Shown: positions 6,553 to 63,495, counted from the stretch's first letter. The stretch: 64,000 nt of DNA from Desulfatiglandales bacterium (GCA_963662465.1 OY759599.1:8097626-8161625), one strand, 5' to 3'. Numbers and translations are program-made. The notes: a model not told the origin generated them from the sequence alone.

Positions 6553-6683
6553 CAACCCAAAACCCAAAACTCAAAACCCAAAACCGCTGTTCCAATGCCC
6601 AAAACCAAAAACTCAAAACCGCTGTTCCAATGCCAAAAACCCAAAACCCCTAACTCAAAACTCAAAACCCAAAACCCAAAACC
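6553..6683 (+). repeat. AAAAC(C/T)C heptamer tandem repeats
   Basis: Seen directly; same family at about 10499, 14472, 16701, 18466, 23990, 25293, 26368 and 51866. Confidence 0.9.
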
Positions 6684-6825
6684 GCTTTTTCGTAATCCAA
6701 AGAGCGGAGCTATGTGCGAAGTATCTTAAGAACCATGATCTTACTGCCCCCTGCCCCCTGACAACTGCACCCTTTAACAACGACAATAAGGAAAGCCTGA
6801 CCCCCTTACACGCGCCCCACCTGAA

Positions 6826-7131
6826 TTGACCCAGGAACAGGAACACCAACGCGAGCAGATTCTAGCGCGACTTCAAGAGGTGGCAGCAATGCTGAAAAGC
6901 CGCTTTGGTGTTCGACGAGTTATTTTATTTGGCTCGCTTGCCCGAAAGCTCTCGTTTACTCCTGGTTCAGATGTGGATATAGCCGTTGAAGGACTGAACA
7001 CGAAAAAATATTGGCAGGCTTGGAAGTTGGCTGAGGAGATGATCGGAGATCGCCCAGTGGACTTTGTCCAAATTGAGACAGCGAAAGAGTCTCTCAAGCG
7101 AGCGGTTCAACGCTATGGAATAGACCTATGA
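6826..7131 (+). CDS. Minimal nucleotidyltransferase (MntA-type antitoxin)
   Basis: LFGSLAR....SDVDIAV motif. Confidence 0.85.
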   Translation: MTQEQEHQREQILARLQEVAAMLKSRFGVRRVILFGSLARKLSFTPGSDVDIAVEGLNTKKYWQAWKLAEEMIGDRPVDFVQIETAKESLKRAVQRYGIDL

Positions 7132-7373
7132 ACAGGGAATTGGAAGAGCTTGTTGAGCGAATTCATGGAGAAATCCCTGATTTGGATCGACTTGTGCAAA
7201 GGGTGTTATCTGCTTGGAACCGCTCCAAAAGCAAATTGAAGGAGCAAGACATTTACTTGGAATCTGTTGCTTTAAACCTCCACGGCTTTTATTCAGGAGT
7301 TGAACGTCTATTTGCTGAACCACTGGCTTTCGCAGATTTTCTAGCAGATTTGGCTCAGGCAAGTAAGACGTGA
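7128..7373 (+). pseudogene. HEPN-type toxin partner, internally deleted
   Basis: SVALNLHGFYSGVERLF joins directly to a C-terminal LAFADFL; no RxxxxH segment; coupled to the MNT gene. Confidence 0.65.
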
Positions 7374-7679
7374 TCATTCTTAGTTCAATATTCCACAGAA
7401 ATTCTCAAAAGGACTTCATTCCCCATGCTCTCTGCCATTATACGCACCTCCGGTGGATTTTTCGTATCCTATTCAAATTCCCTGGTAGATTCAGCAGAAA
7501 TGATGAAGAAAGGGAAAACTTTCATCCATTAACCTTCAAGCCCTTCATGTCCTTCATGGTAAAACACATTTTTTCAATTCGTCCATAGCCCATTTGCCCA
7601 TAGCCCATTGCCTACCATACCGATGCCGCAGGCTTCATAAACTTACACCTTTAAAAAATCTCAATCCAAGAGGAATCAA

Positions 7680-9332
7680 ATGAAAAACAATCAACCCAAC
7701 ATCGCCGTCATCGGCTCCGGCTACTGGGGCAAGAACCTCGTTCGAAACTACCACCAGATCGGTGCTCTCAAACTCATCTGCGATAAAAACGAAACCGTCC
7801 TCTCCAGCTTTCAAGAGCAATACCCCGGCGTGGACACCTGCATGGCCCTAAACGACACCCTCTCCCGAGAAGACATCCAAGGCATCGTCATCGCCACACC
7901 GGCCGAAACCCACTACATCCTGGCTCGGGAAGCCCTTCTTGCCGGTAAACACGTCTACATCGAAAAACCCCTGGTACTCAAAGAGGAAGATGGGCAGGAT
8001 CTGATCCGTCTGGCCAAAGAGAAAGATCTGGTTCTCATGGTCGGCCACCTGCTTCAGTACCATCCCGTCTTTCTCAAACTGAAGGAGATGGCCGCCTCCG
8101 GTGAACTGGGCCGCATCAACTACATCTATTCCCATCGCCTCAACCTAGGCAAAATCCGGCGCGAAGAAAATATCCTCTGGTCCTTCGCCCCCCACGATAT
8201 CTCCATGATCCTCTCCCTGGCTGGGGAAGAACCGGATGAGGTCATGGCAACCGGCGGCAACTACCTGCACAAAAGGATCGCCGACGTGACCACCACCCAC
8301 CTGGAGTTCCCCTCGGGCCTTCGCGCTCACATCTTTGTCTCCTGGCTGCACCCCTTCAAGGTCCAGCAACTGGTGGTGGTTGGGGACAAAAAGATGGCGG
8401 TATTTGACGACACCCAACCATGGGAAGACAAATTGCTGCTCTACCCCCATGAAATCAAATGGCAGAACAACATCCCCATCCCCTCCAAAGGGGAAGCCGA
8501 AAGGGTCGATATTCCTCAGGCCGAACCACTCAAAATGGAATGCGAACATTTTCTCCATTGCATGACAAATTGCCGGAGACCCCAGACCGACGGTGCCGAA
8601 GGCCTCCGCGTTCTCCGTATCCTGAATGCCGCACAACAATCGCTGGATGGTGACAGTGAGAAGATTGATCTCGCGCAAAGACGCAAAGACGCAAAGGGAA
8701 CAGAGAAAGGGGTATTGGAAAAGAAACCGACCACCGACCACCGACCACCGACCACTGATTTTTTTGCTCACGAAACGGCCCTTATTGACGATAATGTAAC
8801 AGTCGGGGATGGAAGCAAAATCTGGCATTTCAGTCACGTACTTTCCAACTCGACCATCGGTGAAAACTGCAACATCGGGCAGAACGTGGTGATCGGTCCG
8901 GATGTCACCATCGGTAAAGGGTGCAAAATCCAGAACAACGTCTCCGTCTACAAAGGCGTCACCCTGGAAGACGGGGTCTTTTGCGGTCCCTCCATGGTTT
9001 TTACCAACATCTACAATCCAAGAGCTGAAATCCGGAAGATGGACCAGGTACGTCCCACCTTGGTCAAACATGGCGCAACCCTGGGCGCCAACTGCACAAT
9101 CGTCTGTGGAACCACCATCGGGGAATACGGCTTTGTGGGCGCCGGCGCCGTGGTCACCCGAAATGTCCCTAGGCATGCCCTAATGTTGGGCAATCCAGCC
9201 AGAAGGGTCGGATGGATGTGCCAATGCGGAGAACGCCTCACCGACGACCTCGACTGCCTCACGTGCGGAAAGACCTATGAAAAGAATGAAGAAGGCCTAA
9301 AAGAAAAAATTAGACAGGATCAACAGGATTAA
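7680..9332 (+). CDS. Gfo/Idh/MocA oxidoreductase (WbpB/WlbA-like) fused to a hexapeptide N-acetyltransferase (WbpD/WlbB-like)
   Basis: GSGYWG, EKP and GH motifs, then left-handed beta-helix repeats with IWHFSH and GNPAR; linker encoded by tandem repeats. Confidence 0.9.
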
Positions 9333-9379
9333 CAAGATTAAAAACAAAAACAATCCTGCAAAATCCTGTAAATCCTGTC
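9313..9379. repeat. 9-mer inverted-repeat hairpin (ACAGGATTA x3 ... AATCCTGTA x3)
   Basis: Left arm 9313-9339, right arm 9352-9379; the right-arm triplet occurs 15 times between 9.3 and 26.5 kb. Confidence 0.9.
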
Positions 9380-12689: not shown

Positions 12690-14447
12690 TTGATGCAACA
12701 ACACCAACCCAATGCAACCATTGACCACGCCTCCTCTCCTCTCGACGTGTCCACCTCCCCCAGCGGAGAGGAGTTCCCTTTGCCGCGGCCCGAGGACTAT
12801 AACCAGGAATTCAAGAGACTCAAGCAACTGGTGAATGAACAACGCCTCAAAGGACGGGAAATTGTCGTCGTCATGGGTGTCGGGTTTGTGGGCGCTGTCA
12901 TGGCGGGCGTGGTTGCCGACTCCGTGGATGGGGAAACAGGGGAATCCAGGTACTTCGTCATCGGTATGCAGCGGCCTTCTCCCCGATCTTTTTGGAAAAT
13001 CCCGTACCTAAACCGGGGCATTTCCCCTGTGGAGGCTGAAGACCCGGATGTGGCGCCCTTGATTCAACGGTGTGTACAGGACAAGCAGACCCTCACAGCC
13101 ACCTTTACCTACGACGCTCTGTCACTTGCTGATGTGGTGGTAGTGGATGTTCAGTGCGATTACCACAAGGAGAGCCTGGGGAATGTTCGTCAGGGACATG
13201 CCGACATAGAGGCGCTGGAAGAGAGTCTCAAGATTATCGGAGAGAAGATTGAAGCGCACTGTCTGGTCTTGATCGAAACGACCGTTCCTCCCGGCACCAC
13301 GGAGTATGTGGCTTTCCCCATCATAAAAAGGGCCTTTGAAAAACGCGGCCTTTTCCAGAAACCGACCTCCGACCTCCGTCCTCTGACCTCCGACCTCCGT
13401 CCTCCGACCTCCGACCTCCGAAAAACGGCGGAGCCGCTTTTAGCCCATTCCTTTGAGCGGGTCATGCCTGGGCGGGAATACGTGGCCTCCATCCGCGACT
13501 TCTGGCGGGTTTGCTCCGGTATCAACCAAGAATCCAGGGAGCGGGTGGAACTGTTTTTGTCCAACATCCTGAATGTAGATAAGTTCCCCCTGACCGTGCT
13601 GGACCGGCCCATTGAAAGCGAGACCTGCAAGATCGTAGAGAACTCCTACAGGGCCACCATTCTGGCATTCATGGACGAATGGAGCCGGTTTTCCGAGAAA
13701 AACGGGGTTGACCTCATCAAGGTCGTGAAGGCCATCAAGGTGCGACCCACGCACGCCAACATGATTTTCCCCGGTCCCGGCATTGGGGGATACTGCCTTC
13801 CGAAAGACGGAGGTCTTGGCGTCTGGGCCTATCATACGCTTATGGGGTTTGAAGATGACATCTTCAAGATCACCCCCATGGCCATCGACATCAACGATAC
13901 CCGTGCCCTGCATGTGGCCCAGTTGGTGCGTGATGCGCTGCGGAATATGGGACGGATAGTGGCCGCCTCCAAAATTGCGGTATTGGGCGCCTCCTACCGG
14001 GAAGATGTGGGCGACACGCGTTACAGCGGTTCAGAGATGGTCGTCCGGAAACTCACGGAGATGGGCGCGGATGTGGTGGTTCATGATCCGTATGTCAGCC
14101 ACTGGTGGGAGCTGGAAAAGCAGGATACCTATCCCTCTCCCGGCCATTCGTGGTCGCGGTTTTTCAGGAACCAGGAAAAGTTGAAGGAAACCGTTGTCCA
14201 AGATGACCTGAATAAGACCCTGTCCGGAGCCGATGCCGTTATTTTGGCGGTGAGACATCAGGCTTATCTCAATCTGGACCCGGATGGGGTGGTGGAAATG
14301 ATCGGTGGTCCGGCGGCTGTGGTGGACTGCTTCGGGGTGTTGGACGATGTGGCCATCAAGCGGTATTTCGAGTTGGGCTGCGAGGTCAAGGGACTTGGGC
14401 GGGGGCATATTAAGCGGATTAAGGATGCGGTCAGAGCTTCTGCGTAG
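12690..14447 (+). CDS. UDP-glucose/GDP-mannose dehydrogenase-family nucleotide-sugar dehydrogenase
   Basis: GVGFVG, ETTVPPGTT, KIVENSYR and GGYCLPKD motifs; in-frame heptamer repeat at about 13360-13420. Confidence 0.9.
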   Translation: MMQQHQPNATIDHASSPLDVSTSPSGEEFPLPRPEDYNQEFKRLKQLVNEQRLKGREIVVVMGVGFVGAVMAGVVADSVDGETGESRYFVIGMQRPSPRSFWKIPYLNRGISPVEAEDPDVAPLIQRCVQDKQTLTATFTYDALSLADVVVVDVQCDYHKESLGNVRQGHADIEALEESLKIIGEKIEAHCLVLIETTVPPGTTEYVAFPIIKRAFEKRGLFQKPTSDLRPLTSDLRPPTSDLRKTAEPLLAHSFERVMPGREYVASIRDFWRVCSGINQESRERVELFLSNILNVDKFPLTVLDRPIESETCKIVENSYRATILAFMDEWSRFSEKNGVDLIKVVKAIKVRPTHANMIFPGPGIGGYCLPKDGGLGVWAYHTLMGFEDDIFKITPMAIDINDTRALHVAQLVRDALRNMGRIVAASKIAVLGASYREDVGDTRYSGSEMVVRKLTEMGADVVVHDPYVSHWWELEKQDTYPSPGHSWSRFFRNQEKLKETVVQDDLNKTLSGADAVILAVRHQAYLNLDPDGVVEMIGGPAAVVDCFGVLDDVAIKRYFELGCEVKGLGRGHIKRIKDAVRASA

Positions 14448-14888
14448 GGAACTATAAATGTAAGAGTTGGCAACTCAAAACTCAAAACCCAAAACTCAAA
14501 ACTCAAAACCCAAAACCATCTTTGCTCTCTTCGTTACCTTCTGTAAAAAGCCCTTAAAAAAAATCCTGTAAAATCCTGTTAATCCTGTCAAAAAAAGAGT
14601 TATGGAATTATGAACAATGTCCCCCATTCCCCTCTATCTCACAGAGGATGACCAAAAGAAAATTGCGGCTGCTATCGGGGATAGACCATAGCCTAATACC
14701 TATCGCCCATAGGGGGAGGAATATGAGGGAAACCAGTGGCATTATGAACTGGGAGAGAAAGGGGCTGCTTACAGTGCCAATTTTGCCCCCAAAAATGTAC
14801 TTCTAAGCCCAGAAAACGCATATATTTTGGACTTAAATATTGAATAATCAATAGGATAGTTTGGTCAGACCCCAGACTGCAGCATGAC

Positions 14889-15743: not shown

Positions 15744-15837
15744 ATCATTAGGCTTTTACAGCTTAGTTTTCTTCCTTAACTTCTGTAAAAAGCCCGAAGC
15801 AAACATCCTGATAATCCTGTAAATCCTGTCAAAAAAA

Positions 15838-16615
15838 ATGGAGCCGGTTTTCCGAGAAAAACGGGGTTGACCTCATCAAGGTTGTGAAGGCCATCAAGGT
15901 GCGACCCACGCACGCCAACATGATTTTCCCCGGCCCGGGCATTGGGGGATACTGCCTTCCGAAAGACGGAGGTCTTGGCGTCTGGGCCTATCACACCCTG
16001 ATGGGGTTTGAAGATGACATCTTCAAAATCACCCCCATGGCCATCGACATCAACGATACCCGTGCCCTGCATGTGGCCCAGTTGGTGCGTGATGCGCTGC
16101 GGAATATGGGACGGATAGTGGCCGCCTCCAAAATTGCGGTATTGGGCGCTTCCTACCGGGAAGATGTGGGCGACACGCGTTACAGCGGTTCAGAGATGGT
16201 CGTCCGGAAACTCACGGAGATGGGCGCGGATGTGGTGGTTCATGATCCGTATGTCAGCCACTGGTGGGAGTTGGAAAAGCAGGATACCTATCCCTCTCCC
16301 GGCCATTCGTGGTCCCGGTTTTTCAGGAACCAGGACAAACTGAAGGAAATCGCCGTTCAGGATGACCTGAATAAGACCCTGTCTGGAGCCGATGCCATTA
16401 TTTTGGCGGTGCGACACCGGGCCTATCTTGATCTGGACCCGGATGGGGTAGTGGAAATGATCGGGGGTCCGGCGGCCGTGGTGGATTGTTTCGGGGTGTT
16501 GGACGATGCGGGGATCAAGCGGTATTTCGAGTTGGGTTGTGAAGTGAAAGGCCTGGGTCGAGGCCACGTGAAACGGATTAAAGACAAGGTGCGCAGTGCT
16601 TTTCAGAGCCGATAA
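15838..16615 (+). pseudogene. 3'-half duplicate of the nucleotide-sugar dehydrogenase
   Basis: Near-identical to about 13679-14440; starts right after a 9-mer triplet and A-run; different last residues. Confidence 0.85.
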
Positions 16616-16682
16616 AAAATAAACCCGCTCACCCCTTTACACTATCACGGTAATCGGAAAATCGAAAGAAACGCATGAATGC

Positions 16683-17321
16683 ATGGGCGTCCCTCTGCCC
16701 AAAAACTCAAAACTCAAAACCCAAAACCCAAACCCAACCCCCAACGACTACTTCGCTCACGAAACCGCGGTAATTGACGATGACGTTACTATCGGAAAAG
16801 GGACGAAAATCTGGCATTTCTCCCATATCCTGTCCAATTCTAATCTGGGTGAAAACTGCAACATCGGCCAGAATGTGGTGATCGGCCCGGATGTCACCAT
16901 CGGCAAAGGGTGCAAGATCCAGAACAATGTCTCCGTCTACAAAGGCGTCACCCTGGAAGACGGTGTCTTCTGCGGCCCTTCCATGGTCTTTACCAACATC
17001 TACAACCCCCGGGCGGAAATTCGCAAAATGGACCAGGTCCGCCCCACCCTTGTGAAACACGGCGCCACCCTGGGCGCCAACTGTACCATCGTATGCGGAA
17101 CCACCATCGGGGAATACGGCTTTGTGGGTGCCGGCGCCGTCATCACCCACAATGTCCCCAACCACGCCCTCATGCTGGGCAACCCCGCCCGCCGTGTCGG
17201 TTGGATGTGTCAATGCGGAGAACGTCTGACCGACGACCTCGACTGCCTCACGTGCGAAAAAACCTATGAAAAAAATGAAGAAGGCCTAAGAGAAATAATT
17301 AGACAGGATCAACAGGATTAA
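16683..17321 (+). CDS. Stand-alone second copy of the WbpD-like N-acetyltransferase domain
   Basis: Closely similar to the C-terminal domain of 7680-9332; N-terminus ([12 protein letters not shown]) encoded by heptamer repeats. Confidence 0.75.
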
Positions 17322-49068: not shown

Positions 49069-49069
49069 A

Positions 49070-52390: not shown

Positions 52391-52453
52391 AAAGCATAGG
52401 AATTTCCATTTTTGATTTGGCATATCAAATAGTTGTTGCAGTGATGGCATTAA

Positions 52454-53788: not shown

Positions 53789-53939
53789 AATGAAGGTAAA
53801 TGAAGCGATAATAGACGTCGAGATTGCAAAAGCAGAATATGAAGGAAGGAATGTGGAAGGCTTTATGCCCATTCTCGGTTGCCCTCAGTGCAATCGAGAA
53901 ACAATGAAATATGCGCAAGGTAGAAAGCCCGCGCGTTAG
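53703..53939 (+). CDS. Small Zn-ribbon ORF overlapping the transposase end
   Basis: CSHC...CPQC; lies inside the IS. Confidence 0.5.
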   Translation: MTAGVEGEDFPFGPPPEEYPYRCSHCRHEMKVNEAIIDVEIAKAEYEGRNVEGFMPILGCPQCNRETMKYAQGRKPAR

Positions 53940-54059
53940 CGCGCTAAGTTCATATTTTGGCACCCCGGTTAAACCCCAGTGGGGGAAGCGCCCTTAACTT
54001 TTTAACTTTAGTTTGGGTTCTCGCGCGGAGGCGCTGAGACGCAAAGAAGAGAGGAAAAA

Positions 54060-54276
54060 AAGGTGAGAGGGTTAGCAGAGGTCGGAGGTCGGAGGACTGA
54101 GGTCGGATGTCGGAGGTCGGAGGTCGGAGGGCGGATGTCGGAGGTCGGAGGTCGGAGGACGGAGGACGGAGGACGGAGATCGGAGGACGGAGATCGGGAA
54201 AAGACAGAGGTCGGATGTCAGAGGTCGGAGGTCGGATGTCGGAGGTCGGAGGACGGAGGACGGAAGGCGGAGGACT
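54060..54276 (+). repeat. GGAGGTC/GGAGGAC heptamer array
   Basis: Same family at about 55697, 57423-57790, 58762-58860, 60400-60525, 62757 and 63177; reverse complement at 13360 and 26205. Confidence 0.9.
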
Positions 54277-55515: not shown

Positions 55516-56363
55516 TGCCAACTGAACCTCCAAACCCCACCCAAAACATAGTACCCCTTCCTTTCCCTTTACCTATTTTAGCCCAAAGCCATTTTGGGCA
55601 AGCTGTTCCAATTATCTACTCACCTTGGCCTTGAGCTTACTCGTAATGGAATAGGACGTTGTTCCGTAATTCCGTTTTTTGCCCACGAATCACACTGAGG
55701 ACAGAGGACGGAGGACGGAGGTCGGAGGGCGGCGTGGACGTAGGGAACGTAGTCAACTTGTAAACTTACTGATTGAGAAAAACCATTTTCAGGTGATGGG
55801 TGATTGTGTTGCGTGAAAACCCGCGTCTCCCGCGTGGCCCCTGCTTAGGGACGAGACAAGCAGGCTGGGGCTTGGGTACAGGACGAAAATCCTTTACACA
55901 AAATCGATTAATTGTTTATGACCCAGACCTCGTTATTTGATCTAACAAGCACCGTTTTTTGGACACCATCCTCGTCATATCAGCTGTATGGAGGCAAATT
56001 GTGGACCTGGGGGACGTCCATTTGTAATTCAGTAACTCGATATTTTGGCACCCCGGTTAAATGCGTTCCACTCGTCACTGGCGTGAATTTAACGGGGCAG
56101 GCGCATTTCACAGATGGCACAGATTAATTGTTTCGCGCCCAGTGAAACAACTGCAACGAAGGTTTCACAAGGCAGGCAGAGGCGCAAAGATAGAAGCTGA
56201 AAACTCAAAGGGGAAAGGACAGGGGGCAAAACTGCGGGATGGATGGATAAGTAGGGTTTTCACAGTAAGGCGGCAAAGCCGCAGTTTTGGGTTTTGGGTT
56301 TTCAGTCATTAAACTTCTTGTTTTTTGGGAAAGAAGACCAGGTACTATAGCAGCGATTATGGC

Positions 56364-56400: not shown

Positions 56401-56718
56401 ATGACAGAAAAACGAAAACCAACATACGATATAGAAGCTTTCAAAACAGCTTTTGCCAATATGGAGAGACTTTCCGCCACGGGCACAGCGCTACGAAGCG
56501 CCGCCGCATTGGGATTCGGACGCGCGGAGATCGTGGCGACGATCCAGTCAATGCAGCGAGGGCACTTTTACAAGTCTATGACCGCTTATGCCAATCATCG
56601 ACTTTGGCAGGACGTCTACCACGTCCCTTCACCGGCCGGCGAGTTGTATGTTAAGTTCACCGCCGATACCGTTACAGAGTTTTTGTTGCTATCGTTTAAG
56701 GAGAAAGACGATGACTAA
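56401..56718 (+). CDS. mqsR: MqsR toxin
   Basis: EKRKPTYD, FYKSMT....WQDVY and LLSFKEK motifs. Confidence 0.92.
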   Translation: MTEKRKPTYDIEAFKTAFANMERLSATGTALRSAAALGFGRAEIVATIQSMQRGHFYKSMTAYANHRLWQDVYHVPSPAGELYVKFTADTVTEFLLLSFKEKDDD

Positions 56719-57178
56719 TCCCATTTGTCCGGAAACGGGTGCTCCGATGCACCGCGGCGTGCAACCGATAACCATCAGGTACAAGAGCGAGACGATCACT
56801 TTCGATATGCCGGGGTGGTACTGCGACCAGTCTGATGAGAGCATTCATACCGGCAAGGACATGAAGGTATCCGACCGAATGTTAAATCGCCTTAAAGCCC
56901 TTAGCGAAGGGCTGCTTGAACCGGAGGAAATTCGTCGTATCCGCAAGAAGATTGATCTTACGCAGGAAGTCGCGGGGCGGGTAATCGGTGGTGGCCCGCG
57001 TGCCTTCCAAAAATACGAAAGCGGAGACCTGTTGCCGAGTCGGGCCATCAGTAGCGCCTTGACTTTGCTTGATCATTACCCCGAGGCGTTGGCCGTGCTT
57101 AAAGCAGGGCGCGGTATTGAAGAGCCCCTGCCTTACAAAACGACGGACCACGGCCATAACCAGAGCGCCGCTTTTTGA
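56711..57178 (+). CDS. mqsA: MqsA antitoxin (Zn ribbon plus HTH)
   Basis: CPE...GWYC, IRRIRKK..LTQ..A...GGG..AF.KYE.G motifs. Confidence 0.9.
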   Translation: MTNPICPETGAPMHRGVQPITIRYKSETITFDMPGWYCDQSDESIHTGKDMKVSDRMLNRLKALSEGLLEPEEIRRIRKKIDLTQEVAGRVIGGGPRAFQKYESGDLLPSRAISSALTLLDHYPEALAVLKAGRGIEEPLPYKTTDHGHNQSAAF

Positions 57179-58006
57179 TACCATCATGAAATGCGTGGGA
57201 CCTGGGGGACATCCATTTGTAATTCAGTAACTCAATGAGGACCTGGGGGACGTCCATTTGTAATTCAGTAACTCGATATTTTGGCACCCCAGTTAAATAA
57301 TAGCAAAAACAGATTTAACCCCGCTACCATCTTCCAGCACTGCGGGACAGGCGGGGCAGGCGCATTTCACAGATGGCACCCCGGTTGAACACCCTGGAAG
57401 GGAACCCGGTTCAACTGGGCAGGGAGGACAGAAGGCAGAGGTCAGACGACAGAGGACAGGGGACGGAGGACAGAGGACAGAGGACAGGGGACAGAGGACG
57501 GAGGGCGGATGTCGGAGGACGGAGATCAGAGGACAGATGGCGGAAGACAGATCCCAGGTCTCAGGAATTGGGCATAAAGAACAGCCATTTCAGAATCTTC
57601 GGTTCCATTCCACATTCGATATTATTGAGGCGGCGGAGAATCCCAGAGGTCAGAAGTCGGAGGTCGGTGGTCGGATGTCGGATGTCGGAGGTCGGAGGTC
57701 AAGAGGAAAAGAAGGTGAGAGGGTGAGAAGTTAAGAAGGTGAGAGGGTTAGCAGAGGACAGAGGACGGGGGACGGAAGGCGGAGGGCAGGGATAAAAGAA
57801 AAGGATCCCAGGGGTCAGGCTTTCCTTATTGTTGGTTGTGGGGGGATGTTGAGAGGGTCGCGCTGAGATCCACAGGTTACGCAGATGACACGGATTGGTA
57901 AGTATCTGGAAACGCCGCGCCCAGGTTGAATGAATAAAAAGGTCTTGACTGCCACCGATTGAATGCATAGACTAAGTTCATTGAACTCAATTTTATGAGG
58001 TGACCC

Positions 58007-58252
58007 ATGCAAACTGTTAATATCCACGAAGCCAAGACGCACCTTTCACGCTTGGTTGACGAGGCTGCCAAAGGAAATGTTTTTATCATTGCCAAGGCAG
58101 GAAAACCGATGGTCAAAGTTTTGCCCCTGTCGGATGGTGTGGTTGACGGGACTGAAAGGTTGGGGTTCATGTCCGGTGAGATCACGGTACCGGACGATTT
58201 TGATTCTCTCGGGGCAACGGAAATTACCATGCTTTTTGAAGGAAACCCCTGA
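58007..58252 (+). CDS. Phd/YefM antitoxin
   Basis: VNIHEAKTHLSRLV...IIAKAGKP; TTGACT-17-TAGACT promoter at 57945. Confidence 0.9.
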   Translation: MQTVNIHEAKTHLSRLVDEAAKGNVFIIAKAGKPMVKVLPLSDGVVDGTERLGFMSGEITVPDDFDSLGATEITMLFEGNP

Positions 58253-58638
58253 TGAAACTGTTGTTGGATACGCACATTGTTCTGTGGGCTGCAGGTCAGC
58301 CTGAAAAGCTTTCCGAATCAGCCCGAACTCTCTTGACAACACCCGAAAACGCTTTGTTTTTCAGCGTGGCCAGCATGTGGGAAATTGTCATCAAACGGGG
58401 CCTGGGACGGGACGATTTCAAGGTGAATTCGAGGCGCTTGAGAAAGATGCTTATCGCAAATGGTTATAACGAACTATCTGTTGATGCGGAGCATGTTTTT
58501 ACGGTCGAAACGCTGCCTTTACGTCATAAAGACCCTTTTGATCGCTTGCTGCTGGCCCAGGCTAAAACGGAGGGAATGCTTTTGCTTACGGTTGATGCAT
58601 CCGTTCTGCAATACCAGGAATCTGTGTTGGCTGTTTAG
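58252..58638 (+). CDS. vapC: VapC PIN toxin
   Basis: LLLDTH..LW, S.WEI.IK and HKDPFDR.L.AQA motifs. Confidence 0.92.
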   Translation: MKLLLDTHIVLWAAGQPEKLSESARTLLTTPENALFFSVASMWEIVIKRGLGRDDFKVNSRRLRKMLIANGYNELSVDAEHVFTVETLPLRHKDPFDRLLLAQAKTEGMLLLTVDASVLQYQESVLAV

Positions 58639-59004
58639 GGGAAGCACGGGCACTATTTGCCTCGGTATGGGATTTGTGTGGCTTAGATCCGCAGATTACG
58701 CAGATTACACGGATTAGGTGTCTCGCGCCAAGACGCCAAGGCGCAGAGAAGAGAGGATAGATGACGGGGGACGGAGGGCGGAAGACAGAGGACGGAGGAC
58801 GGAGGACGGAGGACGGAGGTCGGATGTCGGAGGTCGGAGGTCGGAGGTCGGAGGACAGAGGGTGAGAAAATCTAACGGGTTGAAGCCGGAATTTACACTC
58901 ACCATCAGGCGTTGCAACATGTACTCGATAGCAACTTGCAGCCTATCCAAAGGGCTTCTTGCTGCCACGATCCTGGTGCATTATCTGTCGGAAAGGATCC
59001 GAGT

Positions 59005-59340
59005 TCAATCTGCGGAAATAAGCCGTTGAGCTATGGCGCAGGCCTTTGATAAGGTTTTCTTGTCAACGCCGCCGATTTTTTTTACCAATCGTTTTTTGTC
59101 CAAACTTCTTAATTGATCCAGCATGATCTTTGAATCCTTGTCAAGACCGGCTGTACCACGGGGGATGAATACTTCAAATGGGTATATTTTCCGGGTTGTC
59201 GAGGTTATGGGCGCAACAATCAACCTGGAAGAGTTGTGATTCATGACATTTACCGAAATGACCAGCCCAGGCCTGGTCTTGCCGATTTCAGTATGTAGGG
59301 TCGGGTCCAAATTGACAAGATATACGTCTCCCTGATCCAT
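59005..59340 (-). CDS. mazF: MazF/PemK toxin
   Basis: LDPT...EIGKTRP.LVIS, APITS and DQLRSLDK.RL motifs. Confidence 0.92.
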   Translation of the reverse strand: MDQGDVYLVNLDPTLHTEIGKTRPGLVISVNVMNHNSSRLIVAPITSTTRKIYPFEVFIPRGTAGLDKDSKIMLDQLRSLDKKRLVKKIGGVDKKTLSKACAIAQRLISAD

Positions 59341-59583
59341 TTAGTCCCACCCCTCTGGGTCCAAGGATTCCCATACTCTAATATCGGCCTGACGGTCTTT
59401 GTCTTTTGCAGCCTCTGAAAATGCCAGGCTCAATGCCTTTTCCTCTTCCTGCCGTATTTTTTTTGTGATTTCGTTTTTTAATAACTCATTGACAACCCTG
59501 CTTTTCTGGCGATTCGGAACCAGTTCCCCAAACCTTTCCCATATTTGGCGCTCAATGGTTAAATTTACCCTGATCTGTTCCAT
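59341..59583 (-). CDS. Putative MazE-type (RHH) antitoxin
   Basis: RVNLTI start, acidic C-terminus, directly upstream of mazF. Confidence 0.75.
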   Translation of the reverse strand: MEQIRVNLTIERQIWERFGELVPNRQKSRVVNELLKNEITKKIRQEEEKALSLAFSEAAKDKDRQADIRVWESLDPEGWD

Positions 59584-59798
59584 CCGTCCCTCCTTCCTCT
59601 ATTTGTGTTGCCTGCTGGATGTATACTAATACAGCAAAACCAGAAGGGCAAGGGATTAACGGGGTCAGGCTTTCCTTATTGTCGTTTTGAGGAATTGGTG
59701 TTTTGGAAAAGGGATTGCGAAAAGTAGAGGGCGCCTAATCTCGCTGGCATCAACGATGATGCGGCCGCATGGATAACTGAAAAAGGCAGTTTTACGTT

Positions 59799-60101
59799 CT
59801 AAGTGTTTCGGCCAGAGTCTACAAGGGCCATCTCGATTCGTTTTCCCAGTACAGCGGCAGCTTTGCTGATTGTGGCGATGGTTACGTTGTGTGCTTCTTC
59901 ATTGAGAAGACGTTCCAATGCTGATCTGCTCGTTTTCATTCGGGTTGCCATCTCTGTTTTTCGAATACCTTGTTCTTCCATCATGGTTTTTAGCTGGTGG
60001 GCAAGGTTTTTTTTCAAGGCATTCAACTGAACTTGCTCATAGATGCCCTCTTCCTGGAGGAAATCATCAAAGCTCTGCCCTACATGGTGTTTCTTTAGCA
60101 T
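59799..60101 (-). CDS. XRE-HTH antitoxin
   Basis: G.SFDDFL.EEG, MA.RMKTSRS...RLL motifs. Confidence 0.85.
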   Translation of the reverse strand: MLKKHHVGQSFDDFLQEEGIYEQVQLNALKKNLAHQLKTMMEEQGIRKTEMATRMKTSRSALERLLNEEAHNVTIATISKAAAVLGKRIEMALVDSGRNT

Positions 60102-60104
60102 TTC

Positions 60105-60377
60105 TTAGCCCTCCATTTCTCTTTTTCTGCTTTTGGCCAATTCAAGATCCCCTTTCGGAATCTTTTTTGATTTTTTGATGAATCCATGGAGCAGGTACAA
60201 TTGATCAGATTCAATGAAAAAGAGTACCCGCGCTGCTCGGCCGTTCGAAATCCGAGAGCGTATTTCAAAATTTCCGTTTCCGAGAGGCTTACATCTTGGG
60301 GGACCTACAGGCCAATGATATTCCACATTGGCGATATCTCCGCCGATCTCTATTCTGTCCTCTTTGGCCAATGACAA
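60105..60377 (-). pseudogene. RelE/Gp49-like toxin, probably 5'-truncated by the repeat block
   Basis: WPVGPP, EIRS, ARVLF and LLHGFIKK motifs; no clear start or RBS. Confidence 0.7.
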
Positions 60378-60574
60378 TAGCCATTCCCGGACAGTAAAGA
60401 CAGATGTCAGAGGTCGGAGGTCGGAAGTCAGGAAGGGACAGAGGGCGGAGGTCGGAGGGCGGAGGACGGGAAAAGACAGAGGTCGGATGTCGGATGTCGG
60501 AGGTCGGAGGTCGGAGGTCGGGGGTGAGGGGGCTGAGTTTTGGGTTCTGGGTTATGGATTTTGAGTTAGAAATG

Positions 60575-60620
60575 GAAGAAAATTGACGAAAGGACTTTTG
60601 ATTTTGCTTTGTTGGATGTT
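60575..60620 (+). pseudogene. 5' fragment of the four-helix-bundle gene
   Basis: GAAGAAAATTGACGAAAGGACTTTTGATTTTGCTTTGTTGG identical to about 51525-51565, again preceded by TTTTGGG heptamers. Confidence 0.8.
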
Positions 60621-60629
60621 TAGGCGAAG

Positions 60630-60920
60630 TTACGCTCGATGTGCGTGCAGCTTTAGCCCAAGGGCCTTAATGACCTTGAGGATCGTCCCGAATTCCGGGT
60701 TTCCATTCTTTGAGAGCGCTTTGTAAAGGTTCTCCCTTGCCAGTCCGGTATCGCGTGCCAGCTGTGACATACCTCTGGCTCGCGCGATGACCCCCAATGC
60801 ATGAGCGATGAATGCGGGGTTGTCCCCTGCTTCTTCGAGGCAGGCATCCAAATATGCTGCCATATCGTCATCGGTTTTCAGATATTCGGCGGTATCGTAT
60901 CGGGTAAATTTTTCAGACAT
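60630..60920 (-). CDS. Addiction-module antidote (HI1420-like HTH)
   Basis: D.AEYL, ALG.IARARGMSQLA..TGL.RE.LY..LS..GNP motifs. Confidence 0.9.
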   Translation of the reverse strand: MSEKFTRYDTAEYLKTDDDMAAYLDACLEEAGDNPAFIAHALGVIARARGMSQLARDTGLARENLYKALSKNGNPEFGTILKVIKALGLKLHAHRA

Positions 60921-61221
60921 TCTTCAACCCCTTCCATTTCTTGGCAATCGTTTGTGCCTGCTGGATATCCCGGTCCTGTGAGGATTTGTCACCACCACAC
61001 AGCATCACCAACATGTTCAACTCGGGCTGCATGCAGTAAAGCCGATAGCCTGGTCCGTAGTGAATGCGCAACTCGGACAGCCCATGCCCAATGGGGCGAA
61101 TATCACCCAGGTTGCCTAAGCCCACACGATCAAGTTTTGCATGGATCCTCATGCGTGCCCGACGGTCTTTCAGATTCCCTAACCATTGAGAAAAAGTGGC
61201 ACTTTCGATAATTTCAATCAT
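60913..61221 (-). CDS. Addiction-module killer (RelE/ParE, HI1419-like)
   Basis: GNLGD...G.SELRIHYGPGYR.Y and GGDKSSQ..DI motifs. Confidence 0.9.
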   Translation of the reverse strand: MIEIIESATFSQWLGNLKDRRARMRIHAKLDRVGLGNLGDIRPIGHGLSELRIHYGPGYRLYCMQPELNMLVMLCGGDKSSQDRDIQQAQTIAKKWKGLKNV

Positions 61222-61335: not shown

Positions 61336-61593
61336 GCGTGGCCGTCCTTTCATTCGACGTTTGGTATTGTTGAGGCGGTGGAGGGGGGGAGGTTTCCGGA
61401 TAGAGGCGATCCCGGTGAAATACGCTTCGCTGTCACTATCATGAGTTTCACGGGACGAGTGATGACGGTGCATCCGCAGCGTTGGACGGATGATCCGGTG
61501 GCGTGGACGAAGGAGCTGGTTTGGCAGAATTGTAAGAATTTAGTGAAACGTATTGTTGTTCGCAGATTACGATCCGCAGATTACGCCGATTGA
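61336..61593 (+). pseudogene. Divergent 3' duplicate of the deacetylase-like gene with a hairpin insert
   Basis: WPSFHSTF...GRFPD[insert]VMTVHPQRWTDDP..WTKELV; shorter copies at about 54325 and 57598. Confidence 0.8.
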
Positions 61594-61642: not shown

Positions 61643-62860
61643 ATGTCAAGAAATGAATATAGGGTCTTTCTTGTGGTGGGTGCGCGGCCGAATTTTATGA
61701 AGATTGCGCCGATTGTCAGAGCGCTTAAAGCACAAAGCGATCCGCAGATTACGCCGATTACACAGATTGATTGGAAGATTGTGCACACCGGGCAGCATTA
61801 TGATTATGAAATGTCGCAGGCGTTCTTCGATGATTTGAAGATTCCCAAACCCGATCATTTCCTGGAGGCGGGGCCGGGGAGCCATGCGGAGCAGACGGCC
61901 AGGATTATGGTCAGTTTTGAGAAGCTTTGCGAGCAGGAGCGGCCGGATCTGGTTGTGGGCGATGTCAATTCCACCCTGGCGTGCTCCGTGGTGTCCAAAA
62001 AGATCGGCATTGAAGTGGCCCACGTGGAGGCCGGGTTGCGGAGCTTTGATCTGTCCATGCCCGAGGAAATCAACCGGATGGTGACGGACGCTATAGCGGA
62101 TTATTTTTTTGTGACGGAGCGAAGCGGGGTAGAGAACCTCAAAAAAGAAGGAAAGCCCGAAGACCGGATCTTTTTTGTCGGGCATGTGATGATTGATAAT
62201 CTCTTGCATCAGCTGGAGGAAGTCCGCACGAATCATTTTCCTTTTGAGCATCGGGCGCTGAAGGATAGTCTTGACGAGTATATTTTCATGACGCTGCACC
62301 GGCCCGCCAACGTGGATGACAAGGAAATTCTTAGCGGGATCGCGGGGACTTTGGCCCGCGTGGCAAAGCATGTGCCCGTCATTTTTCCGGCACATCCCAG
62401 AACCGGGAAGATGCTGGCGCATTTCGGGATTGAGCTGCCGGAAAATATTCATCGGCTGCCGCCTTTGGGGTTTCGAGAGTCCTTGTACCTGTGGAAAGAT
62501 GCCAAAATGGTGATCACCGACAGCGGGGGGCTGCAGGAAGAGACCACGGCCCTGGGTGTTCCCTGCCTGACGTTGAGGGAAAATACCGAGAGACCGGTCA
62601 CGGTAACGGAAGGGACGAATCAGCTGGTGACGGTTAATGATCTCGAGGACCGGGTACTGGAAATCCTGGCGGGAAGAGGAAAAAAGGGTCGGGTGCCGGA
62701 GTTGTGGGACGGAAGAGCGGCGGAGCGGATTGTGGGGGTTTTGGCGGAAATTTCACAGAGGTCGGATGTCGGATGTCGGAGGGCCGGAAGTAGGTGGTTA
62801 GAAGCGTTAGGCGTGCCCTTTTCCCCTAGAGCTTTTCTGTTGTTTATGGATAAAATATAG
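61643..62860 (+). CDS. wecB: UDP-N-acetylglucosamine 2-epimerase (non-hydrolysing)
   Basis: GARPNFMK, HTGQHYD, HVEAGLRS, TDSGGLQEE, TERP and WDG.A..RI motifs; repeat-derived insert and tail. Confidence 0.92.
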   Translation: MSRNEYRVFLVVGARPNFMKIAPIVRALKAQSDPQITPITQIDWKIVHTGQHYDYEMSQAFFDDLKIPKPDHFLEAGPGSHAEQTARIMVSFEKLCEQERPDLVVGDVNSTLACSVVSKKIGIEVAHVEAGLRSFDLSMPEEINRMVTDAIADYFFVTERSGVENLKKEGKPEDRIFFVGHVMIDNLLHQLEEVRTNHFPFEHRALKDSLDEYIFMTLHRPANVDDKEILSGIAGTLARVAKHVPVIFPAHPRTGKMLAHFGIELPENIHRLPPLGFRESLYLWKDAKMVITDSGGLQEETTALGVPCLTLRENTERPVTVTEGTNQLVTVNDLEDRVLEILAGRGKKGRVPELWDGRAAERIVGVLAEISQRSDVGCRRAGSRWLEALGVPFSPRAFLLFMDKI

Positions 62861-62914
62861 AAAAGCCAAACCAAATATGATCATTATCAACCCACCTAAG
62901 ATGACAGAATACAT
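62807..62914 (-). CDS. 35-aa single-TM peptide
   Basis: ATG directly follows the TAG of 62915-63112 with GGAGG upstream; MYSVILGGLIMIIFGLAFLYFIHKQQKSSRGKGHA. Confidence 0.5.
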   Translation of the reverse strand: MYSVILGGLIMIIFGLAFLYFIHKQQKSSRGKGHA

Positions 62915-63112
62915 CTATGCCTCCTTTTCGATAAATATGGCTAATAAATATACGAAAACAGAAATAATTACGCCTAAAAAAACCAATATCGGGTTTATTT
63001 TAAGTTGATGAAACAAAGGTGCAATGACTGAAGTGGCGAAAATGATCTTGCCAGTATCAGTTAGAATGTCTGCAATCCTTTTCTTTTGTTTTTCGTTCAG
63101 AATCATAGCCAT
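62915..63112 (-). CDS. Small two-TM membrane protein
   Basis: Two hydrophobic segments; same architecture as 17602-17778. Confidence 0.6.
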   Translation of the reverse strand: MAMILNEKQKKRIADILTDTGKIIFATSVIAPLFHQLKINPILVFLGVIISVFVYLLAIFIEKEA

Positions 63113-63218
63113 TCGCTTTCCATTTCTTTAACTTTATACTCAGATTGGAGTTGTGTCAATTTAAAAAGAAGCTTCTGGACGGAGGGCTGAGGTCGGAGGT
63201 CGGAGGACGGAGGACAGT

Positions 63219-63415
63219 GTTGAGTTTTGGGTTTTGAGTTTTGAGTTGAAGGGAAAGGGCGGAAGACAGTTTTGAGTTTTGGGTTTTGAGTTTTGAGTTG
63301 AAGGGAAAGGGCGGAAGACAGTTTTGAGTTTTGGGTTTTGAGTTTTGAGTTGAAGGGAAAGGGCAGAAGATAGTTTTGAGTTTTGGGTTTTGGGTTTTGA
63401 GTTGAAGGGAAAGGA
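63219..63415 (+). repeat. 4 x 52-bp tandem array built on TTTTG(A/G)G heptamers
   Basis: GAAGGGAAA core at 63248, 63300, 63352 and 63404. Confidence 0.9.
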
Positions 63416-63495
63416 CGGAGGACGGAGGGCGGAAGACAGAGGTCGGAGGGCCTCTCCCTACTGGGCATGGAGATATGGAGGCAGCGTCTCAGGGT

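What the first reader, a model, noticed from the sequence alone, without database searches (positions are those of the whole stretch)
6553..63450. Repeat families are mirror-polarised around a repeat-free variable core
Seen: left of the core (6.5-26.5 kb) the repeats read mainly C/A-rich on + (AAAACCC, CCGACCT, CCGACCA, CCATAGC, AATCCTG, AAAGCCTGACCCC at about 6790 and 19925). Right of it (49.6-64 kb) they read mainly G/T-rich (TTTTGGG, GGAGGTC, AGAAGGT, GGGGTCAGGCTTT at about 57811 and 59662), although the biosynthetic genes are all on +. The three families present on both sides are exact reverse complements. I saw no tandem repeats in the 23-kb core. Exceptions exist (23756, 19836, 26081, 51866, hairpin left arms). 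Inference: oriented marks bracket the serotype-specific core, possibly guiding its exchange (Chi/KOPS-like polarity) or allowing long-range pairing.
Basis: partly seen in the sequence, partly recalled or inferred. Interest (0 to 1): 0.85.

Follow-up and report, generated by a model that had tools for sequence, protein, structure and literature searches.

The report
Mirror-oriented heptamer repeats flanking polysaccharide locus
The short 7-base repeats really do point in opposite directions on the two sides of this sugar-coat gene cluster, but they look like leftover halves of small hairpin gene cassettes copied many times in one direction, not like signposts that steer gene exchange.

Summary
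In the window, 8 of 8 unpaired heptamer arrays left of the core are C-rich on +. All 8 of 8 unpaired arrays right of it are G-rich. The core has none. The 4 "exceptions" are hairpins with the G-rich arm first.

The switch is not at a replication origin or terminus. The repeat words show no Chi- or KOPS-like strand skew.

The same C-run then G-run recurs in two paralogous loci of this genome. One of them has no core at the switch. It also recurs in one locus of a congener. These are one inherited architecture, not independent cases.

Genome-wide, these arrays follow the published polarity rule: the G strand starts at the neighbouring gene. Hairpin pairs are G-first 69 to 5.

Both flanks are patchworks of direct partial duplications of anchor-gene 3' ends plus their spacers, mixed with toxin-antitoxin and other small cassettes. 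A wbpA insertion site is found empty, with a full hairpin, with the C arm only and with mainly the G arm. So lone arrays are decayed hairpin halves.

Best reading: inherited half-cassette arms multiplied by direct duplication. A guiding function is not supported. The scan has met heptamer-armed cassettes before on other DNA.

The parts
6554..6683 (.). Outermost left array. AAAACCC-type, C-rich on +, with a 35-bp higher-order period. It is 73% identical in inverted orientation to the 105-bp array at 50.4-51.5 kb.
6775..6805 (-). Copy of the 27-nt motif GGGGTCAGGCTTTCCTTATTGTCGTT, on - here. A second left copy lies at 19924; the right copies at 52118, 57811 and 59661 are on +.
7680..9332 (+). 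One 550-aa ORF that joins an oxidoreductase (WbpB-like) to a hexapeptide acetyltransferase (WbpD-like). The link is a translated spacer holding (CGCAAAGA)n at 8674-8696 and (ACCGACC)4.3 at 8726-8755.
9309..9378 (.). Empty 9-mer hairpin, (ATTAACAGG)3.6 then (AATCCTGTA)2.9, between the WbpD part and wbpE. At 20203-21705 arms of the same kind enclose a three-gene cargo.
12690..14447 (+). wbpA-like UDP-sugar dehydrogenase with an in-frame C-arm array (CCGACCT)8.6 at 13362-13421. Most relatives searched lack this roughly 25-aa insert.
14460..14597 (+). Spacer module: (AAAACYC)n, a 44-nt spacer, then (AAATCCTGT)3. Further copies at 23990-24115, 25275-25403 and 26348-26478; a partial copy at 12570-12670.
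15836..17303 (+). Direct partial duplicates: the wbpA C-terminal half (15836-16600), an AAAACCC array (16702-16745) and the WbpD part (16707-17303).
18145..18490 (+). wbpA 3'-end fragment followed by an AAAACCC array. Further wbpA 3' fragments at 24118-24408 and 26482-26628.
19834..19906 (.). G-first heptamer hairpin, (AAGGTAT)n then (ACCTTAA)n.
23754..24036 (.). G-first heptamer hairpin without cargo, (GGTTTTG)14.9 then (AACCCAA)6.6.
25415..26251 (+). Second, truncated wbpA copy. It carries the full hairpin insert (G arm 26080-26113, loop, C arm 26203-26237) at the same site as the array in the intact gene.
26640..49897 (+). Variable core. All genes are on +: aminotransferase, sugar-modifying enzymes, flippase-type, glycosyltransferases, MBOAT, Wzy-type. 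No heptamer arrays. G+C falls to 31-38% at 38-48 kb.
49925..50347 (+). The N-terminal 131 of 325 profile positions of a DUF6765 gene, ending where the 105-bp array begins.
50359..51906 (+). IVS-like cassette. G arm is a 105-bp unit repeated 10.9 times (50359-51516). Cargo is a 23S_rRNA_IVP four-helix-bundle gene (51511-51906). C arm is (ACCCAAA)4.4 at 51866-51896.
52380..53952 (+). IS91-type insertion sequence with many near-identical copies in the genome. Absent from the paralogous flank.
54078..54273 (.). Unpaired G-rich array (GAGGTCG)27.6. It is preceded by a copy of the spacer that follows the core's last gene, and followed by a fragment of that gene's 3' part.
55697..56302 (.). Unpaired G-rich arrays (GAGGACG)5.1 and (GTTTTGG)2.7, between a YhgA-like transposase gene (54514-55515) and mqsR.
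57424..57766 (.). Cluster of G-rich arrays (GAGGACA, GAGGTCG, AGAAGGTG) with a second fragment of the core's last gene between them.
58763..58861 (.). Unpaired G-rich array (GACGGAG)14, preceded by (CGCAGATTA)3 and (CGCCAAGA)2.4.
60406..60625. G-rich arrays followed by a sequence that matches the start of the four-helix-bundle gene at 51511 (by eye, not aligned). I read it as a decayed cassette left arm.
56401..61221 (.). Toxin-antitoxin cassettes on both strands: mqsRA (+), phd/PIN (+), mazEF (-), Gp49/HTH (-) and an addiction-module pair (-).
61339..61575 (+). Fragment copy (54% amino-acid identity) of the 3' end of the core's last gene (49070-49897), followed by (CGCAGATTA)3.
61643..62860 (+). 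UDP-GlcNAc 2-epimerase (WbpI-like) with (GTCGGAT)2.9 inside its 3' end, at 62761-62780.
63177..63449 (.). G-rich arrays: GGACGGA, a 52-bp unit repeated 4.2 times that contains GTTTTGA, then AGGACGG. The contig ends 551 bases further on.

Best explanation
The arrays are arms, and mostly lone surviving arms, of small hairpin cassettes. This is the class whose typical cargo is a four-helix-bundle gene of the "23S rRNA intervening-sequence protein" family.

In this genome such hairpins have a fixed handedness. The G-rich arm lies next to the gene on its 5' side, and the C-rich arm lies next to the following gene.

The two flanks of the locus are zones where small selfish genes have piled up: toxin-antitoxin pairs, nucleases, BRO-N and four-helix-bundle genes. 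The zones grew by events that make direct repeats, such as tandem duplication, unequal crossing-over, or integration of circles by homology. Each event recopied the 3' end of an anchor gene together with its spacer.

- In the left zone the recopied spacers carry C-type arms: the wbpE/wbpA spacer module, and the arrays before the WbpD part and inside wbpA.
- In the right zone the recopied spacer is the one after the core's last gene, together with left arms of four-helix-bundle cassettes. Both are G-type.

The result is a C-run, a young repeat-free core of low G+C, and a G-run. This is the ordinary "C array, gene, G array" rule seen at the scale of a locus. It was inherited by the paralogous loci and by a sister species.

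Shown: the polarity, the handedness, the duplications, the decay of hairpins to single arms, and the absence of any link to replication. Inferred: the order of events, and that no selection for function maintains the polarity.
For: 1. Handedness. Of neighbouring opposite-sign sites no more than 600 bp apart, 69 are G-first and 5 are C-first, among 614 sites genome-wide.

2. Polarity rule outside the three loci:
- Near stop codons, G lies on the coding strand 166 to 45.
- Near start codons, G lies on the non-coding strand 84 to 56.
- Arrays lie closer to the gene on the 5' side of the G strand 275 to 117.
This matches the passages I read in Rehm et al. 2015 (PMC4692102).

3. Decay to single arms. 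One wbpA site occurs in four states:
- Empty: the third-locus copy, the 5.87-Mb paralogue, and 2 congener genes.
- Full hairpin with G arm, loop and C arm: window 26080-26237 and 7,069,2xx.
- C arm only: window 13362-13421 and the second locus.
- Mainly the G arm: congener G010:C3.

4. An empty 9-mer hairpin at 9309-9378 corresponds to arms of the same kind enclosing a three-gene cargo at 20203-21705, at the third locus and in the congener.

5. Direct duplication.
- tblastn finds 6 extra wbpA pieces, 2 wbpB/D pieces, 3 short wbpE fragments (plus the distinct core aminotransferase at 32% identity), and 1 piece of the core's last gene, all on +.
- Part of the spacer module has 37 genomic hits. 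35 are on +, and all but 2 lie in the left zones of the three loci.
- The right-zone arrays at 54078, 57424/57646 and 58763 share the leader that follows the core's last gene.

6. Inside the three loci, arrays 0.6-2 kb apart have the same orientation 31 to 5. Elsewhere the ratio is 19 to 39.

7. Breakpoints. 30 of 83 homology end points in the flanks lie within 15 bp of an array, against 12.8% expected (p = 6e-8).

8. The pattern recurs only in homologous loci: the second locus, the third locus, and G010:C1.
Against: - After sites with homologous flanks are collapsed, 5 left clusters are all C and 8 right clusters are all G (p = 0.0008). Duplication of two founder spacers does not explain every array. 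55697, 56284, 62761, 6554 and 7583 have no recognised duplicated flank.
- An unrelated 27-nt motif shows the same mirror rule. Of its 20 genomic copies, 12 are on - and 8 on +. All 11 that lie in or just before the left zones are on -, and all 8 on + lie in the right zones. One copy, at 1.46 Mb, lies outside the loci. This hints at a directional process acting on whole zones.
- In the left zone the arrays put C on the coding strand. That is the minority state for unpaired arrays in co-directional spacers elsewhere (75 against 137).
- No intermediate of the proposed duplications or integrations was observed.
Confidence: 0.55

Rival explanations
1. Directional cassette accretion. The arrays themselves are the recombination sites. 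A cassette carrying one array integrates at a resident array, which makes direct repeats. Each zone then grows like an integron array without a dedicated integrase, and the two zones face away from the core.
For: - Inside the loci, arrays 0.6-2 kb apart have the same orientation 31 to 5, against 19 to 39 elsewhere.
- Breakpoints are enriched at arrays, 30 of 83.
- Cassettes shared with the third locus end at arrays: 54369-55730, 62778-63187 and 63412-63995.
- The array unit families are largely confined to these loci.
- 8 right-zone sites that my flank clustering did not link are all G.
Against: - Pfam found no integrase or recombinase in the window ORFs I scanned.
- Cargo genes lie on both strands relative to the arrays, unlike integron cassettes.
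- The one presence/absence difference I checked between the paralogous right flanks is an ordinary IS (rve integrase core) inserted into an array, not an array-to-array event.
- No circular or empty-site intermediate was seen.
Confidence: 0.18
2. RNA- or transcription-level function. C-rich arrays are tolerated or used in the upstream part of the long + strand operon, as unstructured, G-poor RNA before start codons. G-rich arrays on the non-template strand mark its downstream end, as quadruplex or R-loop pause sites or as 3'-end protection. Polarity would then be selected by position in the transcription unit.
For: - All biosynthetic genes are on +.
- Many left arrays sit just before start codons or domain starts: 7583 before 7680, 8726 and 16702 before the WbpD part, and the module before the wbpA starts at 12690 and 25415.
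- The passages I read describe TAACTGA repeats pointing toward start codons with a proposed translational role (PMC4679880), and position- and strand-dependent effects of quadruplex repeats (PMC4692102).
Against: - Elsewhere in the genome unpaired arrays in co-directional spacers mostly put G on the coding strand (137 to 75), including inside long operons. C on the coding strand is therefore not a general operon requirement.
- The congener locus G010:C3 has a G-rich array on the coding strand inside wbpA.
- Right-zone arrays keep G on + beside genes of either strand.
- Not tested with RNA data.
Confidence: 0.15
3. Recombination-guiding marks. G-rich strands point outward on both sides so that a helicase-nuclease entering an incoming linear fragment meets them in the active orientation. 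This would focus crossovers in the flanks and swap the core.
For: - The geometry fits. The G-rich strand runs 5' to 3' away from the core on both sides.
- The flanks are conserved while the cores differ between the two large loci.
Against: - No replichore polarity of arrays (131:131 against 145:134) or of the words (50-56% on the leading strand).
- The same polarity surrounds single genes all over the genome.
- The switch persists at a locus without a core.
- The array orientation inside wbpA differs between species.
Confidence: 0.07
4. Chance. Each flank happens to be uniform, and the two happen to be opposite.
For: - The longest same-orientation run in the genome is 10 sites. Permutations give a mean of 9.5 and a 95th percentile of 13.
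- The three loci and the congener locus are homologous, so they count as about one event.
Against: - Perfect separation of 5 against 8 flank-collapsed clusters (p = 0.0008).
- A second repeat class, AATCCTGT at 37:4, and a 27-nt motif show the same bias.
Confidence: 0.05

Closest known systems
G-rich heptameric repeats of Xanthomonas (GGGAATC) and Nostoc PCC 7120 (GGGGA(C/T)T), Rehm et al. 2015, PMC4692102. I saw the search listing and passages.
   Same: - Period 7 and mostly intergenic.
- No leading- or lagging-strand preference.
- The G strand lies on the non-coding strand upstream of an ORF, or on the coding strand downstream, and closer to the ORF on its 5' side.
- Some form inverted pairs.
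All of this was reproduced here genome-wide.
   Different: - Here the units are specific to the locus (AAAACCC, CCGACCT).
- Many arrays are lone arms arranged in long same-orientation runs.
- The runs bracket a polysaccharide core.
Quadruplex formation was not tested here.
TAACTGA intergenic direct repeats of marine Beggiatoaceae, some Cyanobacteria and Bacteroidetes, MacGregor 2015, PMC4679880. I saw the search listing and passages.
   Same: - Heptamer direct repeats with a preferred orientation toward the downstream start codon.
- Occasional in-frame occurrence inside ORFs in the orientation that has no stop codons.
   Different: - Different units.
- Here both orientations occur, sorted by the side of the locus.
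- Here there is a link to hairpin cassettes and to duplicated gene ends.
Heptamer-armed, IVS-like cassettes that carry a PF05635 (23S rRNA intervening-sequence protein) gene. I know these from this scan's earlier notes on other genomes. The primary papers on 23S rRNA intervening sequences were not read here; I only recall them.
   Same: The window holds such a cassette (G arm 50359-51516, PF05635 gene 51511-51906, C arm 51866-51896). The third locus holds two more. Gene-less hairpins have the same handedness.
   Different: The new point is the large-scale sorting of decayed arms: right arms in the left zone and left arms in the right zone. One arm has also expanded to a 105-bp unit, repeated 11 times here and about 25 times in the paralogous locus.
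Chi and KOPS-type polar motifs. Recalled textbook knowledge; no paper read here.
   Same: Oriented G-rich words whose direction matters.
   Different: Chi and KOPS flip at the origin and terminus and are strongly skewed to one replication strand. These arrays and words are not.
Capsule or O-antigen loci with conserved flanking genes and a variable centre, such as the pneumococcal cps and Klebsiella K loci. Recalled; not read here.
   Same: Conserved sugar-precursor genes at both ends (wbpB/D, wbpE and wbpA on one side, wbpI on the other). Unrelated glycosyltransferase, flippase and polymerase cores between two loci whose flanks are 94-99.99% identical.
   Different: Here the flanks are swollen to 14-20 kb by toxin-antitoxin and other small cassettes, gene fragments and polar repeat arrays.

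Membership tests
Polar intergenic heptamer repeats (Rehm 2015 type, STRR-like) | Tandem units of 7 nt, over-represented among short tandem repeats | tested here: met
   Period 7 is the commonest TRF period in the genome, 898 of 3899 rows. The window holds 48 of the genome's 480 exact arrays.
Polar intergenic heptamer repeats (Rehm 2015 type, STRR-like) | The G-rich strand lies on the non-coding strand upstream of an ORF or on the coding strand downstream, nearer the ORF on its 5' side | tested here: met
   Outside the three loci: 166:45 at stops, 84:56 at starts, 275:117 nearer the 5'-side gene. Genes were called as greedy longest ORFs, not by a gene finder.
Polar intergenic heptamer repeats (Rehm 2015 type, STRR-like) | No preference for the leading or lagging strand | tested here: met
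   131:131 against 145:134, p = 0.67.
Polar intergenic heptamer repeats (Rehm 2015 type, STRR-like) | Quadruplex formation by the G-rich strand | not testable with these tools
   GGGTTTT units have runs of three G. GAGGTCG units do not.
IVS-like hairpin cassettes with heptamer arms | Two inverted arrays of the same unit enclosing a loop or a small cargo gene | tested here: met
   4 pairs in the window. Genome-wide, 74 neighbouring opposite-sign pairs lie no more than 600 bp apart.
IVS-like hairpin cassettes with heptamer arms | Typical cargo is a PF05635 four-helix-bundle gene | tested here: met
   Window 51511-51906, E = 3e-22. Two more lie at the third locus and one at the second locus.
IVS-like hairpin cassettes with heptamer arms | Empty and filled states at the same site | tested here: met
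   The wbpA site occurs in four states. The 9-mer hairpin is empty at 9309-9378 and filled at 20203-21705.
Chi / KOPS-like polar motifs | Strong strand skew that flips at the origin and terminus | tested here: not met
   Leading-strand share of the words is 0.50-0.56. Arrays show no replichore bias. The extremes of cumulative GC skew lie at about 5.4-5.6 Mb and 1.7 Mb, whereas the window is at 8.10-8.16 Mb.
Integron cassette array | An integrase gene with an adjacent primary site, and cassettes mostly co-oriented, each with one folded recombination site | tested here: not met
   Pfam found no integrase in the window ORFs scanned. Cargo lies on both strands. attC-type structure was not examined.
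Polysaccharide locus with conserved flanks and a variable core | Shared precursor genes at the ends, with unrelated transferase, flippase and polymerase genes between | tested here: met
   Pfam annotation. Flank identity to the second locus is 94-99.99%, with unrelated cores apart from one aminotransferase gene at 80%.

The most novel reading that the evidence does not exclude
The two flanks are outward-facing cassette-accretion zones that work without a dedicated integrase. Small selfish genes enter and leave by recombination at the repeat arrays or at the recopied anchor-gene ends, always in one direction per zone. The young, repeat-free polysaccharide core sits at the growth point between them.

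A bolder version follows from the order C-run, core, G-run. This is what one gets if a circular element carrying nested G-first hairpin cassettes is opened in its innermost loop and integrated. The whole locus would then be a circularly permuted mobile unit, and cores would be exchanged as circles.
Probability: 0.15. Interest if true: 0.7.

Novelty: new variant of a known kind. Interest (0 to 1): 0.4.

Why it matters
Polar heptamer repeats are widespread and still unexplained. This locus gives an unusually clear natural series for one site: empty, full hairpin, C arm only, and mainly the G arm. It shows that lone arrays can be decayed halves of hairpin cassettes. It also shows that simple direct duplication can turn a gene-scale polarity rule into a striking locus-scale mirror pattern.

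That cautions against reading such patterns as recombination or segregation signals.

The locus also documents how the flanks of a surface-polysaccharide locus become dumping grounds for toxin-antitoxin and other selfish cassettes while keeping kilobase homology that could mediate core exchange.

Tried and rejected
- **Replication link.** Rejected.
- **Run length as evidence.** The longest same-orientation run is 10 sites, which is no longer than permutations give (mean 9.5). I dropped run length as an argument.
- **Rfam.** A scan of the window at gathering thresholds gave 0 matches.
- **RNA data.** No RNA holder is listed among the 7 runs found, so nothing can be said on expression.
- **Laying contigs.** I laid the contigs of 3 runs (X1-X3) on 8000-27999. 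The joints, for example 13343 to 13428 with 15 other letters between, reproduce the paralogous loci rather than showing new variants. Contig depths mix several copies and probably other strains. Bins 26.7-28 kb have no cover in X3. I draw no conclusion from any of this.
- **Array-mediated cassette gain.** I looked for one between the paralogous right flanks. The extra 2 kb in the second locus is an IS with an rve integrase core, inserted into the array.
- **Independent lineages.** The wbpA loci of G004 and G013 carry almost no heptamer arrays. The 20-mer array pattern gave 19 matches in G010, 1 in G004, 3 in G007 and 0 in G005 and G003. No independent test of the mirror rule was possible.
- **Selection against C and G arrays in one transcript.** Not supported. 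Outside the loci, C-then-G neighbours 0.6-2 kb apart are common, 24 of 58.
- **Nested-insertion model with a G-run further left.** Not supported. No G-rich arrays lie upstream of the left C-run.

Full report
**Where the window lies.** The window is the last 64 kb of a single 8.16-Mb contig with 49.5% G+C. Cumulative GC skew has its minimum near 5.4-5.6 Mb and its maximum near 1.7 Mb. The window, at 8.10-8.16 Mb, therefore sits in the middle of a replichore, with + as the leading strand.

**Gene content.** Pfam annotation gives the following layout:
- Left: sugar-precursor genes. A WbpB-like oxidoreductase is joined to a WbpD-like acetyltransferase at 7680-9332. A DegT aminotransferase lies at 9399-10490. 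A UDP-sugar dehydrogenase, here called wbpA, lies at 12690-14447.
- Centre, 26.64-49.9 kb: a core of modifying enzymes, a flippase-type gene, glycosyltransferases, an MBOAT and a Wzy-type gene. All are on +, and G+C falls to 31-38%.
- Right: a repeat-rich zone with a 2-epimerase at 61643-62860.

- TRF finds 99 rows, with no heptamer array in the core.
- At the level of merged period-7 sites there are 24. The left zone has 8 unpaired sites, all C-rich on +, plus 3 pairs. The right zone has 8 unpaired sites, all G-rich, plus 1 pair.
- Every pair is G-rich arm first.
- Word counts agree. AAAACCC is 26:10 on the left and 3:29 on the right. CCGACCT is 5:0 and 1:29.
- The 13-mer has 2 minus-strand copies on the left and 3 plus-strand copies on the right, where 0.09 are expected by chance.
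- Two corrections: AATCCTGT occurs only on the left (37:4), and CGCAAAGA has the same orientation everywhere.
- The right flank has toxin-antitoxin genes on both strands.

**It is not a replication effect.** Outside the three repeat-rich loci, arrays are 131 C to 131 G where + leads and 145 to 134 where + lags (p = 0.67). The repeat words lie on the leading strand 50-56% of the time. That is ordinary base skew, far from Chi- or KOPS-like behaviour.

**The general rule in this genome.**
- Period 7 is the commonest tandem period, 898 of 3899 TRF rows.
- I used a crude gene map of greedy longest ORFs, 6794 calls. Arrays outside the three loci put G on the coding strand next to stop codons (166:45). 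They put G on the non-coding strand next to start codons (84:56). They lie nearer the gene on the 5' side of the G strand (275:117).
- This is the rule described in the passages I read in Rehm et al. 2015 for Xanthomonas and Nostoc (PMC4692102). It is akin to the oriented TAACTGA repeats of Beggiatoaceae (PMC4679880, passages).
- The rule looks the same from either DNA strand. It amounts to a fixed handedness of hairpins: of neighbouring opposite-sign sites no more than 600 bp apart, 69 are G-first and 5 are C-first.
- Any block between two such hairpins therefore has a C array on its left and a G array on its right. The core's inner neighbours fit this: the hairpin at 26080/26203 on the left and the four-helix-bundle cassette at 50359-51906 on the right.

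**Lone arrays are decayed hairpin halves.** One site in wbpA occurs in four states:
- Empty: the third-locus copy, the paralogue at 5.87 Mb, and two congener genes.
- G arm, 90-nt loop and C arm: window 26080-26237 and a fragment at 7.069 Mb.
- C arm only: the intact window gene at 13362-13421, and the second locus.
- Mainly the G arm: congener G010:C3.

In 25 of 31 related genomes searched, wbpA is found. In most of them the match splits at residues 221/247 with adjacent coordinates. The 25-aa insert is therefore specific to this lineage.

A 9-mer hairpin also has an empty state (9309-9378) and a filled state with a three-gene cargo (20203-21705). The filled state sits right after the WbpD part at the third locus and in the congener.

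**The flanks are built from direct duplications.**
- tblastn finds, all on +, six extra wbpA pieces, two WbpB/D pieces, three short wbpE fragments (beside the distinct core aminotransferase at 32% identity), and one piece of the core's last gene at 61339-61575.
- A 130-bp spacer module, (AAAACYC)n followed by a spacer and (AAATCCTGT)3, is present in 4 full and 1-3 partial copies in the window. Its 79-nt right part has 37 genomic hits. 35 of these are on +, and all but 2 lie in the left zones of the three loci.
- In the right zone, the arrays at 54078, 57424/57646 and 58763 carry the same leader as the spacer after the core's last gene. Two are followed by a fragment of that gene. 60406 is followed by what looks like the start of a four-helix-bundle gene.
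- Inside the three loci, arrays 0.6-2 kb apart share orientation 31:5, against 19:39 elsewhere.
- 30 of 83 homology end points lie within 15 bp of an array, against 12.8% expected (p = 6e-8).

**The pattern is inherited, not repeated independently.**
- A stretch of about 80 kb ending at the contig end is paralogous to 29-102 kb of the same contig. The flanks are 94-99.99% identical and the cores differ.
- A third locus, at 7.00-7.125 Mb, shares many pieces. All three show a C-run followed by a G-run. They supply six of the nine longest runs in the genome.
- At the third locus the switch (7,087,448 to 7,090,217) has no polysaccharide core between the runs.
- In congener G010, the locus on contig C1, read in coding orientation, has C arrays on the left (28993, 29380, 34276, 42242) and a nearly array-free centre. 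Its right side has G arrays or G-first cassettes (93739, 97612-99276, 105094, 108384).
- A second congener locus, G010:C3, has the right G-run (6 sites) but no left C-run. It also has a G-rich array inside wbpA.
- The wbpA loci of G004 and G013 have almost no arrays.

**What remains unexplained.**
- Collapsing sites by flank homology still leaves 5 C clusters against 8 G clusters (p = 0.0008).
- A 27-nt motif with 20 genomic copies is on - in or before all left zones and on + in all right zones.
- Some directional process acting on whole zones therefore cannot be excluded. I rate array-mediated, integron-like accretion at 0.18 and an RNA-level role at 0.15. I found no recombinase in the window, and cargo orientation is mixed. 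The only insertion polymorphism I could check is an ordinary IS.

**Verdict.**
- The idea of guiding marks is not supported.
- The most likely explanation, with confidence 0.55, has two parts. A known gene-scale polarity rule of heptamer-armed cassettes was amplified to locus scale by direct duplication in two cassette-accretion zones. The result was then inherited by the paralogues and a sister species.
- The scan has described heptamer-armed cassettes before on other DNA. Those notes gave me the cassette idea and the Rehm paper, and I tested both here.

**Caveat.** The contig ends exactly where homology to the second locus ends, so the right zone is probably truncated by the assembly.

Noticed in passing
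window 64000 (contig end), G000:C1:101959, and L012:1-4054: Homology between the window's right flank and the second locus (99.5% over 10 kb) stops exactly at the last base of the contig. The contig's first bases are unique. They encode ORFs that look like phage tail genes, including an 893-aa ORF that resembles a tape-measure protein; I did not test this with Pfam.
   Followed up: partly
window 7680-9332 (spacer at 8650-8760): The WbpB-like and WbpD-like enzymes are read as one 550-aa ORF. The former intergenic spacer, with its (CGCAAAGA) and (ACCGACC) arrays, is open in frame. The duplicate WbpD part at 16683-17321 starts inside an AAAACCC array that is likewise translated.
   Followed up: partly
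window 13362-13421 inside wbpA (12690-14447): A heptamer array is kept in frame as about 25 extra residues, between the N-terminal and central domains of an apparently intact dehydrogenase. Whether the enzyme tolerates the insert is unknown.
   Followed up: partly
window 49925-50347 and 50359-51906: A DUF6765 gene stops after 131 of 325 profile positions, exactly where the 1.1-kb G arm of the four-helix-bundle cassette begins. The cassette may have split this gene. I did not look for the remainder.
   Followed up: no
window 50359-51503 and G000:C1:86282-88975: The cassette's G arm is a 105-bp higher-order unit, present in 10.9 copies here and about 25 copies in the paralogous locus. This is a large copy-number difference between flanks that are otherwise 94-99% identical.
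   Followed up: partly
G000:C1:8082092-8094116 and 29146-41170: A 12-kb segment upstream of both large loci is 99.992% identical. That is much more similar than the adjacent flanks (94-95%), which suggests recent gene conversion or duplication.
   Followed up: no
L001 (G000:C1:7044000-7054000): Six ORFs with tyrosine-recombinase (Phage_integrase) domains cluster with transposase genes at the left edge of the third locus.
   Followed up: no
window 1-5400 and 52380-53952: IS21-type (IstB plus a CHC2 zinc-finger ORF), DDE and IS91-type elements with near-identical copies elsewhere in the genome border the locus or interrupt it.
   Followed up: no
window 8000-27999 in runs X1-X3: Contig depths differ several-fold between segments unique to this locus (about 6-11 in X1) and segments shared with the paralogues (30-90). 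The runs hold very many contigs, so the sample may contain related strains. I draw no conclusion.
   Followed up: no
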